From Escherichia coli (GTDB taxonomy: Bacteria > Pseudomonadota > Gammaproteobacteria > Enterobacterales > Enterobacteriaceae): DNA of 64,000 nt. Positions 13,001 to 28,000 of this stretch are shown piece by piece (position 1 is the stretch's first letter; every line of letters starts with the position of its first letter). The stretch is from the NCBI RefSeq assembly GCF_041886205.1, contig NZ_CP169029.1. One strand, 5' to 3'. The position numbers were made by a program.

Positions 13001-16000
13001 TCTATTTTATTAATAGCATCTGTTGCTCTGCCATACGCAGCCTGAGCTTCAGGATTGTTGACGTTTTTCAACGTATCCGCATGATTTCTTAATCCTCTGA
13101 GCGTATTTTGCATTTCCTGCATATGATCCCAATATCCTCCATTCTCTTTAGGAACTGGCTTACCATCCATATCCTTGAGAGTTCCAATAATATCATGATC
13201 TTTCAGAGCATTTTTTATAGTGTTATCGATCTTCTTAATCGCACTTTCTTGCTTCTGATTAAGCTTATCTACAGGTTTTTCATTTTGCTGCTTAGGATCA
13301 TTTTCCGATGGTGGTGGTGTACCGGTTCCTGAGCCGGAACCGCCCAGTTCTACTTTTTCCGCATCGGTCAGATCTTTACCGATATTCGGATTCGAGGCAG
13401 CCCCGGAACCGTACTTATCATGCAACGAACTGAGATACTTAGTAGTGATCTCATCATTACCCATCATTTGCAGGGTAATCAGATGCTCCAGTTCATCGGA
13501 GGTCATCCTGTCGGCCATATCCTTGACTGCCGCCCCGGCAAGCCCGGCCATGCCCGCTTTCGCCCCGATTTCTAGCAACTGCTCTGCAACTTTAGTCCTG
13601 CAAGGTGCTGCGACCGCACAGCCTCTGGCAACCAGACTCAGCGCATTATTCTCAACAACGTTCTTCCCGGCACCAGCTCCAGCAGCCGCGCCAGCCACAT
13701 CGCCACTGGCAATGCCGCCGGCCATACCCGCTGACAGCGTTGCCAGCGTGCTTACAGTTTGCTTCTGATCTTCACTGAGGTCTGACTGCTTCACGCCCGG
13801 ATACAGCATTCCGATCGCTCTGGCTGCCAGTTCTCCTGTTGCTGAGCCGACAAAGGCGCTATTTTTCTGTACCACCGACAGCGTGGCATTCACCACTGCA
13901 TGAGTTCATGTGGGACATCTGACGGACAAATTATTTCACAAATGTCCGCTTAACGCGCTCAGATACAATGAAATAGGGGATCCAAATACAGGCACTAAAC
14001 ACGTTACGTACCAATGGTTTTACCGTATCAAAAACATAAGGCACGTCTAAATAGATGTGGCCCAGCAGTAAATCGACAGCAACAAATATCGTTCCTATCC
14101 CAATAAGTGCAATATAGTGATGCGGCAATTGACGCTTTTTACGAAAAAACAAGCTACTAACGAAAATTCCATAAGAAAACATACCAATGAAAGCAAAGAG
14201 TTCAAAAAAGAGGATCCCTTTTTGTGCGTGACCGATCTGCGCAATATTTTCCATTAAGAATCGTATAGTGAAATTAATAGAGATCATATTGGCGAGAATT
14301 GTTAAAACCAGTCCTATTGCTGGCAAGTATAGCCAACCACGAATTTTTTTAAATTCGCGTTCTTCACAAACAGCGCAAAAGTCACTGTCCTTCAGTGCTT
14401 CATTCTCACATTGAATACAAAGTCTTATTTTCTTCTCTGCATCATGGCTCATCTGATAATCACCTATTATTTATACGGGAAAAGTTGAAGATCATGCTGT
14501 TTATTTTCGTCTGTATTGTCACCATTCAGCATATGACCCGGTCCCCGGGTACCATCGCGACTCGGATCACGTACAGCACACTGTTCCCGTGAACCTTCAC
14601 AACCACCACCGGTATCCAAGCTATTATCATTCCCGGTATCCTTACTGGCATTACCTGTAGCACCGGCTATTGCTGCTGCCGTATTAGCTGCTGTTTCAGT
14701 GGCTATCATATTCAGCATATTGTTTCCAGCAACTATCTTAAGTTCCAATTAATCATTTCTTTAGCAAGTTGGCAATCCATAACATTAAACCTGTAAAGCT
14801 ACCAATGTATATACCTATCTTACCTAAAAATAAAATAATGTTCGATGAAAAAGACACTGGTATTCCTTTATAAAAAAAGAAAAAAAATTCCCCGCATACA
14901 TATAAAATCGCCCCTGTTAGAAAAATTGAAACCATGCTGAATACAATAAAAAAAACAGAGGAAGAATGAATTTTAGAGCTTTCATTTGCCACCACCTTCC
15001 TGCTTCATTTTGTACTCTGTATACTTACCTCCGGCTTCTGAAGTGATACTACCACCAATGTCACCAATTGAGCTGGGGACATTGCTTGGTTTCATTTCTT
15101 TTGAGATTCCCAAATCTCCTTGGACTTCAGTAACACTTCTCAACTCAGAATTAAACTTCGGATCCCAACCACCTTTCCACCAGTTTGCCCCTGCATTAAC
15201 ACCCCATGAAAGTCCTTTACCAAGGCCATAGCCAATACCCGAACCGGTACCATTGATAAGTGCACCTGACAATGGATCTTTGTCGTCAATCCAGTTACCC
15301 AGTGCCCCTCCGGCAGCATTCCATCCAACGGTTCCTTTCCAGCCCTGCCCCATGGTGATTACATTGACCCATCCTGCAATGATTGCATTTTCAGGATCAA
15401 CTGAACTATCTACCATGTAACCAATTCCTGCATTTGCACCTGTGCCAAGAACCCACATGGCCTGAGCACCGCCAGGTAAGAAAGCTACACTACCAGTGGC
15501 CAACGCTCCGGCATACGCTTTATTGACTGCTTCTCCTCGCTTACAGGCTTCACCGGAAGGATTATCACTACAGGAGAGAACATCAGCGCCATGCTCTCTG
15601 GCTTTTTCCGTCTGGAGCCATTCACTGCCACCCAGCAGGTTATTCTCAACAACAACTCTTTCCGCCGCAGGTTGCTGTGATAAAAAAGTTTTCCCTGTGC
15701 TTTCAGCGCGTTAAAACCGCTTTGTCCTGCTATAATTCCGGCGCAACAACTTTTTGCCCTGACGCGCCCTTTCAGCCAGTTACACCATTTCCCCCAAATC
15801 TGTTAAAGAATAGCTCCCAACACACTATGACCATCATCCTTCCATGCAGTCATAGACAATATTCCATGGCGATAGCTTCTAATTATTCAGAGGATAAGCT
15901 TTTGAAAAATCATTGTACGTTTCATGAAGATGATAAAATTTTGCATCAGGGTCATTTTTCAGTTCTTCATATCTTTTCATCAGTTTTTTGAATAACCCCT

Positions 16001-25000: not shown

Positions 25001-28000
25001 AATATCGCGGGCCGCGTTAATCTGGCTGGCGGTATCCTGTGTGATGTTTTTCGCGGCAAGCGTTACATCCCGGCCGGCAGTCAGTTTTTCATTCTGTTGA
25101 GTGATTCTGCCGCCGGCGGTCAGGCTGAGGTCCTTGTCGCTGTTAAGCGTTCCATTGCTGAGAACGATATCGCTCCGGCTGCTGACGCTCAGGTTACCTC
25201 CCGCTTTATGGTCGCCGGTTAAGGTGACGCCCTGACCTTTTGCAGTGACGGCCCCCGTGGCGAGACTGTTGTTGACAGTCAGTCTGCCGCTGGCATCCAG
25301 GGTGATATCGCCATCGCGGGCATAAAGGTTACCAAGATTAACCCCGACACCACTTTCAGTGGAGGTCAGATGAATACGCCTGGCGTACATTCCACCGAGC
25401 GCGCCGGTATCAACGGCAACTTTCGGCACATCACCTTCGCCCTTCAGTGCACTGACACGACCATCTGCAGTTATCCGGTTAGCGCCTGCAGTGACAGTTA
25501 AATCCTTCGCATGAAGCGCGGCATTCACTTCCGTTGCACGGGCAATAATGGATACGGCATCGCTCCGGGTGCCGTCCAGGCCCGCGCCATTGATGGTGAT
25601 ACTGCCTTCAGTCACCTCCAGCGCCTGCAGGCTGCCGTCGGCATTCATCACAGGTCTGCCTGTGGTGAGCGTCGCGTGCGGCGTGTTGATAAAACCACAG
25701 CCGTCACAGGTGATACCATACGGGTTGGCAACCATCACATTCGCCGCTTTGCCGGCCACTTCCGTATAGCCCTGCAGCAGTGAACGGTTACCGCCGGTCA
25801 CTTCGTTGATGATACCCTTCGCTTCCCCGCCCGCTTTCAGGTTCGGGTTATTCTGTATCAGTCCACCAAGCTGCGTCGGATTAAGCTTAGCGGTGGCATT
25901 ATTGAGAATCAGCCCTTCCTTCCCGACGTTGTAATCCGTAAACCGGTTATGCGAAATCCCGGCCCCGTTCGGCGTGGCAATGTTCACGACCGGCACACCA
26001 TTTGCCGCTTTATCCATTCCGGCCCCGTTTTGTGGGGTGATGACGGCCCCCACAGCCGGTAACAACGGCTGCCCGGCGATAATCGCACTGACCAGGTAAC
26101 TCAGCAGGCGGTAAGTGAAGTGAACGGGAGGCTGATTCATGGTAATAATCCCTTAAAACGCGACGGCAACGCGCCAGTAAACCGTGAGATGGTCAGGGGC
26201 AAGCCAGTCCGGGTAAACCAGAGGCAGCCCGGCAGTGAACGAACCGGAAACATAGTCACTGGTGGTGCTGAGCCCGGCAGCACCACCCCACAGCGTGCCG
26301 GACGAGTACGGGTCATCTCTGTCAGAGTGCAGCCAGCCGCCGTCCAGTGCAGCCACTGCACGGACAGTTCCCACATATGGCAGGGAGAACAGAGACCAGG
26401 ACAGCTCATTTCGCAGATAACCGCCGTTATTACCGGAGATATACTGCTCCTTAAAGCCACGCACTGAACTCTCACCCCCGAGGCTCAGTTGTTCCACACC
26501 ATGAAGACGGTCCGGTGACCACTGGGCATAAGCGCTGGTCAGCCACCACACCCTGTCCGTGACGGGGCGCTGAAAACTGGCACTCACCGACCATTTCCGG
26601 AACTGATTTACGGGCAGGTCTCCCCTTTTCCCGTGGTCGCTTTCTGCGCCGAACCAGGGCATCCCCCGTGTGAATACCGGATTCAGTGTTCCGACACCCC
26701 CCAGAAACTTGTGTGTGTGATTCAGCCCGACAGAAAATGAAGTGAGTTTACGGCTGCTGCCCTGAAGCAGAACATCATCCAGATAATTGTGAATAATGCG
26801 GTGCTGCAGACCTCCGGTCAGTGCTGTCTTCATGTCCCCGTTACGGAACAGGACATGCGACAGTCCCAGCCGGTGAGTCTGCAGGTCTCCCGTGGAACGC
26901 CACCGCCAGCCCCGGTTATCAATGGTGCTGAGGTAGTCACTCCATGAATACGTATAATCCACCAGGGTATAGCCATACGGCAGACTGACACCGGCGGCAA
27001 AATTCCTCGCATCATGTGACACCGAAAAGTCACTGCTCCGTCCCCCGCTGACAAACCAGTTGTCAGCCAGCCCCAGCGGATTATTAAAGGAAAGGACACC
27101 ATTTAACTGCCCCGTACCGGTATTCTTCTGCCCGCTGTTGTCGATACCCACGCTCCCTGTGACGGGCCATTCCGGCAATGCCGTCAGTGTCACCACCGAC
27201 CATCCCTCACGGTCACCGGGCGATATTTCAATCTGTACCGGCTCCGTACGCAGACGATTAATCTGCTCCATCCCCTGCTCAATATCCCGCAGGTTCAGAA
27301 CCTTCCCCTCCATTCCCGGGAAAACCATCTTCAGGGTGCGGGCAGGAAGGTCAGCGCCTTCCGCCCGGATTTGCTGCAGCCTGCCTTCCATGACCGTTAT
27401 GTGCAGTACGCCCCCTGAAAGGTCCTGCTCTGTCAGAAAGGCCCGGCTGGTGATATATCCCCGGCGTATATAGCCGTCCGTCACGGCATCCGTGACCGCA
27501 GTCAGGCCGGTGATATTCAGACACTGATTCACCCACGGTGCCACCAGTCTGTCGGTTTCTGCAGACGTCAGTCGGGTGGCCCCACTGACAACAATGCGTG
27601 ACACCGTAAAGCAGGGGCCTTCAGTACCGGCAGACGTTTCCGGAGACGGCGTGATAGTCAGCGGCGCACTGCGCTCCAGCGCATCACGCTGACGCTGGTT
27701 TTCATCCAGCAACTGCTGCTGTTGCTGCTGAATTGCACTGCGGTCACCCGGAGACAGCATGGCTGCCGGAGACGAAAACGAAAGAATGCAAAGGCAGGAG
27801 AGGAGGGGAAAATAGCGTGCCACCGGAGAGAAAGTGCGGAGCTTAAATGCGCACTGACCGGAAACCATACCAGGCAACAAATTTCTGTTCGCCAGTAAGT
27901 TATCCTGCCGGTGCTGCATATTCTCCTCGTGTCGTGGGTATTCAGTGTAAATTAACGTAAGCGGAATGTCAGTGCTGAAATTTACACCAGATAAAAAACA

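What the first reader, a model, noticed from the sequence alone, without database searches (positions are those of the whole stretch)
15879..27919. Complete cdiB-cdiA-cdiI contact-dependent inhibition locus
cdiB (TpsB transporter), a 3259-aa cdiA with TPS domain, long repeat region, pretoxin and VENN at about 17363-17374, and a 161-aa cdiI overlapping the cdiA stop form an intact class-I CDI system. The 333-aa CT after VENN has an N-terminal segment of the kind implicated in target-cell entry and a C-terminal domain I cannot assign to a known toxin fold, so the activity is undetermined.
Basis: partly seen in the sequence, partly recalled or inferred. Interest (0 to 1): 0.55.

Follow-up and report, generated by a model that had tools for sequence, protein, structure and literature searches.

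The report
Known E. coli 3006-type CDI locus
This is an intact E. coli contact-dependent growth inhibition locus whose toxin tip and immunity protein match the already crystallised and biochemically characterised E. coli 3006 tRNA-Ile nuclease system, so it is real but ordinary.

Summary
cdiB (26153-27919), an uninterrupted 3259-aa cdiA (16361-26140) and a 161-aa cdiI (15879-16364) lie on the minus strand. The TPS domain, FHA repeats, PT-VENN and a single VENN at 17363-17374 are all present.

The claim that the toxin is of unknown fold and activity is wrong. The 337 residues from VENN to the end are 100% identical to PDB 6VEK chain A, which is CdiA-CT of E. coli 3006. CdiI is 160/161 identical to 6VEK_I and 6CP8_C. 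Published work shows a PtsG-dependent cytoplasm-entry domain followed by a BECR-fold RNase. That RNase cleaves the acceptor stem of uncharged tRNA-Ile(GAU), and CdiI neutralises it.

The "class I" label is correct. The receptor-binding region is 286/289 identical to the BamA-binding fragment of CdiA-EC93. The exact CdiA sequence is already in NCBI, named as a CDI tRNA nuclease.

The finding stops too early. Downstream lie two orphan toxin/immunity modules:
- a group-6 ionophore-type CT with a small membrane CdiI (14753-15650);
- a UPEC-536 tRNase CT/CdiI pair (12590-13896).

Between them sit a cdiA remnant and a DUF2569 gene. Novelty: already known. Interest is low.

The parts
26153..27919 (-). 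cdiB: 588-aa TpsB/Omp85 outer-membrane transporter that exports CdiA
   Evidence: Pfam POTRA_2 (7e-23), POTRA_3 (1.5e-18) and ShlB (3e-90). About 97% identical to CdiB of strains 536 and EC93.
16361..26140 (-). cdiA: 3259-aa effector, uninterrupted ORF
   Evidence: Translation has no internal stop. [quoted passage not shown]
25277..26035 (-). TPS secretion domain of CdiA (residues 36-288)
   Evidence: Pfam PF05860, E = 1e-49. NCBIfam TIGR01901, 7.6e-17.
24354..25303 (-). Divergent FHA-1 repeat allele (about residues 280-596)
   Evidence: Only 32-48% aa identity to the EC93 and 536 alleles, and no megablast match to the STEC434, 536 or EC93 loci. The same allele occurs in 336 complete E. coli genomes, so it is a common variant.
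21149..22015 (-). Class I (BamA-binding) receptor-binding domain, residues 1376-1664
   Evidence: 286/289 identical to CdiA-EC93 Arg1358-Phe1646. That fragment binds purified E. coli BamA (PMC5371414).
18503..20137 (-). FHA-2 repeat region (about residues 2002-2546)
   Evidence: Pfam PF13332 hits at 1.1e-10, 2.1e-05 and 2.2e-43.
17354..17503 (-). Pretoxin-VENN domain (residues 2880-2929); the VENN motif itself is at 17363-17374
   Evidence: Pfam PF04829, 5.3e-17. VENN occurs once, at residue 2923.
16856..17362 (-). PtsG-dependent cytoplasm-entry domain (CT residues 5-173, with Cys55 and Cys65)
   Evidence: 100% identical to 6VEK_A. PtsG and proton-gradient dependence were shown for this exact sequence (PMC9424206). 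Pfam DUF6862 covers its start.
16364..16855 (-). BECR-fold tRNase domain (CT residues 174-337), with catalytic residues K204, Y208, H256, R260 and T330
   Evidence: The 6CP8_A alignment covers CT residues 174-337 with a single one-residue gap near the C terminus, at Asn333 of VNTGTFK (E = 1.4e-99), and 6VEK_A matches at 100%. All five catalytic residues are present. Activity comes from PMC9086364 and the table in PMC11630599.
15879..16364 (-). cdiI: 161-aa all-helical immunity protein of the EC3006 type
   Evidence: 160/161 identical to 6CP8_C and 6VEK_I; the one difference is N150 here versus D150. This exact allele is on at least 1000 public contigs, named only 'hypothetical protein'.
14982..15650 (-). 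Orphan 1 cdiA-CT (VENN at 15639-15650): ionophore-type CT of the group 6 / M15 kind, with no upstream cdiA body
   Evidence: In-frame stops lie upstream. The entry domain is 53/58 identical to CT of E. coli M15/M9, and the ionophore domain is 88/168 identical. 19% Gly and 10 GxxxG motifs. No Pfam or NCBIfam hit. Family description from PMC11630599.
14753..14995 (-). Orphan 1 cdiI: 80-aa protein with two hydrophobic segments
   Evidence: Two hydrophobic segments. 21/83 identical to CdiI-M15 and a weak match to CdiI-EC93 (5e-05). Size and hydrophobicity fit the 72-100-aa ionophore immunity proteins of PMC11630599. Unannotated in STEC434.
14496..14730 (-). cdiA-derived remnant
   Evidence: 92-95% nucleotide identity to stretches lying within cdiA, hemagglutinin-repeat or 'VENN motif pre-toxin' genes of other E. 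coli. No VENN in any frame.
13931..14452 (-). DUF2569 membrane protein gene (173 aa), recurrent in orphan arrays; role unknown, possibly an orphan immunity gene
   Evidence: Three hydrophobic segments. The same gene is found in STEC434 and O157:H7 strains, and in the EC93 orphan array next to a VENN fragment.
12973..13896 (-). Orphan 2 cdiA-CT (VENN at 13645-13656): UPEC-536-type CT, with an FtsH-type entry domain and an Ntox28 CysK-dependent tRNase, plus 80 pretoxin codons
   Evidence: 226/227 identical to CdiA-CT-536 from VENN to the end, with in-frame stops upstream. DNA is 99.9% identical to strain 536. PDB 5J5V_B, E = 9e-148.
12590..12976 (-). Orphan 2 cdiI: identical to CdiI of UPEC 536
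   Evidence: 128/128 identical. Equals Swiss-Prot CDII_ECOL5. PDB 5J5V_C, E = 1.2e-79.

Best explanation
This is a class I E. coli contact-dependent growth inhibition system. It carries the E. coli 3006-type toxin/immunity pair, followed by an orphan toxin/immunity array.

Proposed mechanism, step by step:
1. CdiB exports CdiA through its TPS domain.
2. CdiA forms an FHA-1 filament with the receptor-binding domain at its tip. Export stalls, leaving the C-terminal half in the periplasm.
3. Binding to BamA on a neighbouring E. coli cell restarts export, and FHA-2 carries the CT across the target's outer membrane.
4. The CT is cleaved off after VENN.
5. The freed entry domain uses the inner-membrane glucose transporter PtsG and the proton gradient to reach the cytoplasm.
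6. The BECR-fold RNase domain cuts the acceptor stem of uncharged tRNA-Ile(GAU) after C71, with no cofactor protein needed, and stops growth.
7. Sibling cells are protected because the all-helical CdiI binds the toxin.

The basis differs between steps:
- Shown here: sequence identity and domain content.
- Shown in the literature for this exact CT sequence: PtsG dependence, tRNA-Ile cleavage and neutralisation by CdiI. The tested CdiI carries D150 where this one has N150.
- Inferred: BamA use, from 99% identity of the receptor-binding domain to EC93.
- Not shown: expression and activity in this particular strain.
For: ORFs and domains are confirmed. The CT is 337/337 identical to 6VEK_A and its toxin domain matches 6CP8_A apart from one gapped residue. 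CdiI is 160/161 identical to the crystallised protein. Catalytic K204, Y208, H256, R260 and T330 and the Cys55/Cys65 pair are present.

Published experiments on this sequence cover PtsG- and proton-gradient-dependent entry, tRNA-Ile cleavage and CdiI neutralisation (PMC9424206). Cleavage after C71 of uncharged tRNA-Ile(GAU), independent of other proteins, is reported in PMC9086364. The table in PMC11630599 lists the strain 3006 toxin (EKI34460.1) as a PtsG-dependent tRNA acceptor-stem nuclease (Ile).

The receptor-binding domain is 286/289 identical to the BamA-binding fragment of EC93. [quoted passage not shown]
Against: Nothing in the sequence argues against it. Remaining uncertainties:
- CdiI differs from the crystallised protein at one residue (N150 versus D150), and the effect was not tested.
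- The three substitutions in the receptor-binding domain relative to EC93 (E1441D, G1479S, K1521R in EC93 numbering) are untested.
- Most chromosomal E. coli cdi loci are reported not to be expressed in laboratory media (PMC8190604 abstract). The promoter scan upstream of cdiB found no more than chance would give.
Confidence: 0.93

Rival explanations
1. The locus is intact in sequence but transcriptionally silent in this strain. On this view it does little in competition, or serves mainly in adhesion or biofilm formation, or as a store of immunity genes.
For: PMC8190604 states that EC93 is unusual in expressing its cdi loci in laboratory media. The promoter-like matches upstream of cdiB are no more frequent than chance.
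Against: A 9.8-kb ORF kept free of stops implies selection for function, as do the preserved catalytic residues and cognate immunity gene. The exact protein recurs on 6 public contigs. This rival concerns regulation, not identity.
Confidence: 0.3
2. One reading: the C-terminal 130-160 residues are a toxin of novel fold and unknown activity.
For: Pfam and NCBIfam have no model covering the toxin domain or CdiI, so a search of profile libraries alone returns nothing.
Against: The CT is 100% identical to solved structures 6VEK and 6CP8. Fold (BECR), substrate (tRNA-Ile GAU), cleavage site and active-site residues are all published.
Confidence: 0.01
3. The receptor is not BamA. On this view the three receptor-binding-domain substitutions, or the divergent FHA-1 allele, change target recognition.
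For: There are three substitutions in the 289-residue receptor-binding region. The FHA-1 segment at about residues 280-596 is only 32-48% identical to EC93.
Against: PMC5371414 reports nine class I receptor-binding-domain variants, arising from 17 missense changes, all within a single class. The three changes here are conservative. FHA-1 forms the filament shaft, not the receptor-binding tip. The same FHA-1 allele is in 336 complete genomes.
Confidence: 0.04

Closest known systems
CDI system of E. coli 3006 (CdiA EKI34460.1, CdiI EKI34459.1; PDB 6CP8 and 6VEK)
   Same: The CdiA-CT, meaning the entry domain plus the tRNase, is identical over all 337 residues. CdiI is identical at 160 of 161 residues. 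The cdiBAI gene order and the ATGA overlap are as expected for this kind of locus.
   Different: One CdiI residue differs (N150 here, D150 in the crystallised protein). The rest of CdiA-EC3006 could not be fetched for comparison, so identity outside the CT is unknown.
CdiBAI-EC93 (class I prototype, plasmid pCP127)
   Same: CdiB is about 97% identical. CdiA residues 600-2900 are 88-100% identical in every 50-residue window, 94% or more in all but three of them. This stretch includes the BamA-binding domain (286/289), the YP region, FHA-2 and the pretoxin domain.
   Different: The CT differs: EC93 carries an AcrB-dependent ionophore, and this locus carries a PtsG-dependent tRNase. The FHA-1 segment at about residues 280-596 is a different allele. 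The locus here sits in a chromosomal island, not on a plasmid. EC93 itself carries a 93%-identical 3006-type CT/cdiI as an orphan.
CdiA-CT/CdiI of UPEC 536 (PDB 5J5V and 5J43)
   Same: Orphan 2 is 226/227 identical (CT) and 128/128 identical (CdiI).
   Different: Here it is a promoterless, start-less orphan downstream of another system. In strain 536 it is the tip of a class II CdiA.
Group 6 CDI ionophore CT-M15/CdiI-M15 (Halvorsen et al. 2024, PMC11630599)
   Same: The orphan 1 entry domain is 53/58 identical. The rest is a Gly-zipper-rich C-terminal domain followed by a small immunity protein with two hydrophobic segments.
   Different: The ionophore domain is only 52% identical and the CdiI about 25% identical, so it is probably a distinct cognate pair. 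Here it is an orphan. Depolarising activity and DtpA/DtpB dependence were not tested for this allele.

Membership tests
CdiB/CdiA two-partner secretion (type Vb) CDI system, E. coli type | TpsB transporter with POTRA domains and a ShlB/FhaC barrel, encoded next to the effector gene | tested here: met
   Pfam POTRA_2, POTRA_3 and ShlB (3e-90). The gene lies 12 nt upstream of cdiA.
CdiB/CdiA two-partner secretion (type Vb) CDI system, E. coli type | TpsA effector with an N-terminal TPS domain and FHA repeats | tested here: met
   TPS PF05860, 1e-49. Fil_haemagg and Fil_haemagg_2 repeats.
CdiB/CdiA two-partner secretion (type Vb) CDI system, E. coli type | PT-VENN domain marking the start of a polymorphic CT, followed by a small immunity gene | tested here: met
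   PF04829, 5.3e-17. A single VENN at residue 2923. cdiI overlaps the cdiA stop.
CdiB/CdiA two-partner secretion (type Vb) CDI system, E. coli type | Contact-dependent inhibition of cells lacking cdiI | not testable with these tools
   Needs competition co-cultures. It has been shown for this CT sequence delivered by chimeric CdiA (PMC9424206).
Class I CdiA (BamA-binding) | Receptor-binding region between FHA-1 and FHA-2 matching CdiA-EC93 Arg1358-Phe1646 | tested here: met
   286/289 identical, against 107/327 for class II CdiA-536. Class definitions from PMC5371414. Class III and IV representatives were not compared directly, but 99% identity to class I settles the question.
Class I CdiA (BamA-binding) | Physical binding to E. 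coli BamA | not testable with these tools
   Inferred from sequence identity only.
CdiA-CT-EC3006 toxin family (BECR-fold tRNA-Ile acceptor-stem nuclease) | Sequence match to the crystallised toxin, including K204, Y208, H256, R260 and T330 | tested here: met
   337/337 identical to 6VEK_A. All five residues present.
CdiA-CT-EC3006 toxin family (BECR-fold tRNA-Ile acceptor-stem nuclease) | Cognate all-helical CdiI | tested here: met
   160/161 identical to 6CP8_C and 6VEK_I.
PtsG-dependent cytoplasm-entry domain | Sequence match to the entry domain shown to need PtsG | tested here: met
   CT residues 1-173 are identical to 6VEK_A. PtsG dependence from PMC9424206.
CDI ionophore toxins, group 6 (orphan 1) | Entry domain like that of CT-M15 | tested here: met
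   53/58 identical. M15 DNA is identical to the M9 locus used for the comparison. The published M15 primer matches the window exactly over its 3' 17 nt.
CDI ionophore toxins, group 6 (orphan 1) | C-terminal five-helix-bundle ionophore domain with a glycine zipper, plus a 72-100-aa two-helix CdiI | tested here: inconclusive
   10 GxxxG motifs. 52% identity to the CT-M15 ionophore domain. 80-aa CdiI with two hydrophobic segments. No structure was predicted and depolarisation was not tested.
Ntox28 / UPEC 536 CysK-dependent tRNase (orphan 2) | Sequence match to CdiA-CT-536, including the C-terminal GYGI tail, with the cognate CdiI | tested here: met
   226/227 and 128/128 identical. PDB 5J5V.

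The most novel reading that the evidence does not exclude
The main cdiBAI locus offers nothing new. The most novel reading left open concerns the orphan array. Orphan 1 and its 80-aa membrane protein may be a previously untested cognate pair within the group 6 ionophores, with its own immunity specificity. The recurrent DUF2569 membrane protein may be an immunity gene for a membrane-acting CDI toxin whose gene has decayed here. The particular combination seen here is a 3006-type tip, then a group 6 ionophore orphan, then a 536-type orphan. It is not found as one piece in any of the 5426 complete E. coli genomes searched; the best covers 86%.
Probability: 0.3. Interest if true: 0.2.

Novelty: already known. 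Interest (0 to 1): 0.1.

Why it matters
It matters little for discovery. The toxin, its immunity protein, its import route and its receptor class are all published, with crystal structures. It also exposes an annotation gap: public databases still call this CdiI "hypothetical protein", and the ionophore immunity gene is unannotated. Finally, it shows that the strain holds immunity genes against at least three CDI toxin types. That bears on strain-to-strain competition in the gut.

Tried and rejected
- **NCBIfam:** no model for the toxin domain, CdiI or any orphan protein.
- **Pfam on orphan 1:** nothing, even at E = 10.
- **BLASTP of orphan 1 against both EC93 CTs:** no hit. I first guessed that orphan 1 was EC93-like, and that guess was wrong. 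It is related to EC93 only at the family level described in PMC11630599.
- **Promoter and terminator scans:** no better than shuffled sequence, so uninformative.
- **Two python calls:** failed because all locus records were stored in a single file.
- **pCP127 30000-78000:** fetched in search of cdi-2 but irrelevant.
- **Divergent FHA-1 segment as something unusual:** rejected, because the allele is in 336 complete genomes.
- **Recombination between the orphans and the main cdiA through shared pre-VENN DNA:** only the 12-nt VENN-coding stretch is shared, so no long homology tract supports this here.
- **The 93-aa ORF at 14467-14748:** no VENN in any frame. It is best treated as a remnant.
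Full report
**1. Checking the observation**

The ORF list shows three adjacent minus-strand ORFs: 26153-27919 (588 aa), 16361-26140 (3259 aa) and 15879-16364 (161 aa). Independent translation of cdiA gives 3259 sense codons and a terminal stop, with no internal stops. VENN occurs exactly once, at residues 2923-2926. The cdiI ATG overlaps the cdiA TGA in the sequence AAATGA.

Pfam on three overlapping pieces of CdiA finds:
- the TPS secretion domain at residues 36-288 (1e-49);
- Fil_haemagg (FHA-1) repeats;
- Fil_haemagg_2 (FHA-2) repeats, with a best hit of 2.2e-43;
- PT-VENN (5.3e-17);
- DUF6862 immediately after VENN.

CdiB carries POTRA_2, POTRA_3 and ShlB (3e-90). GC content falls from about 0.57 in the cdiA body to about 0.40 across the CT and cdiI, as expected for a horizontally exchanged toxin tip.

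**2. What the toxin is**

A sequence search of the Protein Data Bank settles it. The 337 residues from VENN to the end are 100% identical to chain A of 6VEK, and residues 174-337 match chain A of 6CP8. CdiI is identical at 160 of 161 positions to 6VEK_I and 6CP8_C; the one difference is N150 here versus D150. These entries are the CdiA-CT/CdiI complex of E. coli 3006.

Bartelli et al. 2022 (PMC9424206) describe the CT as bipartite. [quoted passage not shown] They report four results:
- the purified CT cleaves tRNA-Ile;
- CdiI blocks that cleavage;
- entry into the cytoplasm needs PtsG and the proton gradient;
- the VENN peptide must be removed precisely for entry to occur.

The review PMC9086364 summarises Gucinski et al. 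2019. The substrate is uncharged tRNA-Ile(GAU). Cleavage is after C71 in the acceptor stem, and no accessory protein is required. The active-site residues are K204, Y208, H256, R260 and T330. All five are present here, as are the Cys55/Cys65 pair of the entry domain. Halvorsen et al. [quoted passage not shown]

The activity is therefore known, not undetermined. That probably explains why the domain looked unassignable.

**3. Receptor class**

Ruhe et al. 2017 (PMC5371414) define E. coli CdiA classes by the roughly 300-residue region between FHA-1 and FHA-2. Class I (EC93) binds BamA, class II (536) binds OmpC/OmpF, and class III (STEC_O31) binds Tsx. They showed that EC93 residues Arg1358-Phe1646 bind purified BamA.

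I fetched the EC93 and 536 loci and aligned the proteins. Residues 1376-1664 of the window's CdiA are 286/289 identical to the EC93 fragment. The differences are E1441D, G1479S and K1521R in EC93 numbering. Against CdiA-536 only 107 of 327 aligned columns are identical. "Class I" is correct, and BamA is the inferred receptor.

From residue 600 to the pretoxin domain the protein is 88-100% identical to EC93 in every 50-residue window, and 94% or more in all but three. One FHA-1 segment, at about residues 280-596 (window 24354-25303), is only 32-48% identical to the EC93 and 536 alleles. It has no megablast match to the three fetched loci. The same allele is present in 336 complete E. coli genomes, and FHA-1 variation between CdiA proteins is documented (PMC8190604). 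It is ordinary mosaicism.

**4. How common and how well annotated the locus is**

The CT plus cdiI DNA is 100% identical in STEC434 and CFIAFB20190157. At 80% coverage or more it is present in 14 of the 5426 complete genomes. In EC93 it occurs as a 93%-identical orphan.

[quoted passage not shown] The exact 3259-aa protein is already in NCBI on 6 contigs. The exact CdiI allele is on at least 1000 contigs, but it is still labelled "hypothetical protein".

**5. What the finding missed: an orphan array downstream (12590-15650)**

*Orphan 1.* The stretch 14982-15650 encodes ...VVVENN followed by a 218-residue CT. In-frame stops lie upstream and no cdiA body is attached. An 80-aa ORF with two hydrophobic segments follows at 14753-14995. 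The CT has no Pfam or NCBIfam match and no BLAST similarity to either EC93 toxin. It is 19% glycine, with 10 GxxxG motifs.

A search of the 5.8-billion-protein set found 236 relatives across Enterobacterales and in Aeromonas. The 120 listed are all short proteins of at most 388 aa.

Halvorsen et al. 2024 (PMC11630599) describe a large family of CDI ionophores. Each has a variable entry domain, a glycine-zipper five-helix-bundle domain and a 72-100-aa two-helix immunity protein. Three links tie orphan 1 to their group 6:
- The full-length CdiA of mouse isolates M9 and M15 is identical in DNA across the CT and cdiI. It ends in a CT whose first 58 residues are 53/58 identical to orphan 1.
- The remainder of that CT is 88/168 identical to orphan 1. 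The immunity proteins share only 21 of 83 columns.
- The 3' 17 nt of the paper's own M15 primer match the window exactly at the codons after VENN-L.

CT-M15 is their group 6 prototype. It depolarises targets and enters via DtpA/DtpB. Orphan 1 is therefore best read as a group 6 ionophore module with its own immunity specificity. That fits the intra-group polymorphism the authors describe. Its activity and receptor are inferred, not tested.

*Middle segment.* The stretch 14496-14730 is 92-95% identical in DNA to stretches lying within cdiA, hemagglutinin-repeat or pretoxin genes of other strains, but it has no VENN in any frame. It is followed by a 173-aa DUF2569 membrane protein gene at 13931-14452. 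That gene is also found in STEC434 and O157:H7 strains, and it sits in the EC93 orphan array next to a VENN fragment. Its role is unknown.

*Orphan 2.* The stretch 12973-13896 holds 80 pretoxin codons, a VENN at 13645-13656, and a CT that is 226/227 identical to CdiA-CT of UPEC 536, ending in GYGI. It is followed at 12590-12976 by a CdiI that is 128/128 identical to CdiI-536, the Swiss-Prot entry CDII_ECOL5. Both match PDB 5J5V. That toxin is the FtsH-dependent, CysK-activated Ntox28 tRNase (table; abstract of PMC5562914).

*Array as a whole.* Orphan cdiA-CT/cdiI modules are a known feature of cdi loci (PMC3150448, listed). No complete genome in the collection holds the whole 12500-28600 arrangement. 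The best is STEC434 at 86%, and it carries something else in place of orphan 2. Only the 12-nt VENN-coding stretch is shared between the orphans' pre-VENN DNA and the main cdiA.

**6. Context**

The locus lies in a genomic island rich in IS66, ISL3 and IS21 remnants and in fragments resembling type VI secretion genes (TssA and VasL). An ECs1377-family gene lies upstream of cdiB, as it does in strain 536. Core chromosome genes (ybiO, fiu, rlmF) follow from about 32.6 kb.

**7. Verdict**

The finding is real and correctly identified as a class I cdiBAI locus. Its one claim to interest, an unassigned toxin, dissolves, because the toxin is the structurally and biochemically characterised CdiA-CT-EC3006. 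Novelty is "already known" and interest is low. The small additions are the orphan array, the likely new cognate pair within the group 6 ionophores, and the annotation gaps.

Noticed in passing
window 14753-15650: Orphan cdiA-CT with a glycine-zipper-rich domain, plus an unannotated 80-aa membrane protein gene. The entry domain is 53/58 identical to the group 6 ionophore CT-M15, but the immunity protein is only about 25% identical, so it is probably a distinct cognate pair. The 120 listed relatives (of 236, across Enterobacterales and Aeromonas) are all short proteins of at most 388 aa.
   Followed up: yes
window 12590-13896: Orphan UPEC-536-type CdiA-CT (226/227 identical, ending in GYGI) and CdiI (128/128). 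STEC434, the closest complete genome, has a different sequence at this position.
   Followed up: yes
window 13931-14730: A cdiA-derived remnant without VENN (14496-14730), followed by a 173-aa DUF2569 membrane protein with an N-terminal CxxC...CxxC motif. The same gene is found in O157:H7 strains and in the EC93 orphan array next to a VENN fragment. Its function is unknown; it may be an orphan immunity gene.
   Followed up: partly
window 24354-25303: The FHA-1 segment of CdiA (about residues 280-596) is a different allele from EC93, 536 and STEC434 (32-48% aa identity to EC93 and 536), yet the allele is common: it is in 336 complete genomes. This is recombinational mosaicism within the filament shaft.
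   Followed up: yes
window 8728-10515: A 595-aa NERD + UvrD-type helicase that matches the PADLOC candidate defence model C3a187 over its full length (6.9e-140). It sits next to TssA-like and VasL-like type VI secretion remnants (7307-8686).
   Followed up: partly
window 29621-32215: An 864-aa UvrD/PcrA-like helicase ORF with weak GajB-like matches (2.8e-12). It lies in a stretch (29389-32627) that is absent from the corresponding position of the STEC434 and 536 loci. It may be an inserted defence-type gene.
   Followed up: partly
window 15879-16364: The CdiI-EC3006 allele here (N150) is on at least 1000 public contigs, including Shigella. Other members of its 90%-identity cluster come from Citrobacter, Pluralibacter and Dryocola. 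All are named only 'hypothetical protein', despite two crystal structures.
   Followed up: partly
L005 21088-21753 (EC93 plasmid pCP127, downstream of cdiI-2): tblastn finds a 55.6%-identical relative of orphan 1. PGAP annotates that stretch as two separate hypothetical proteins. It is probably an unrecognised ionophore-type orphan in EC93.
   Followed up: no
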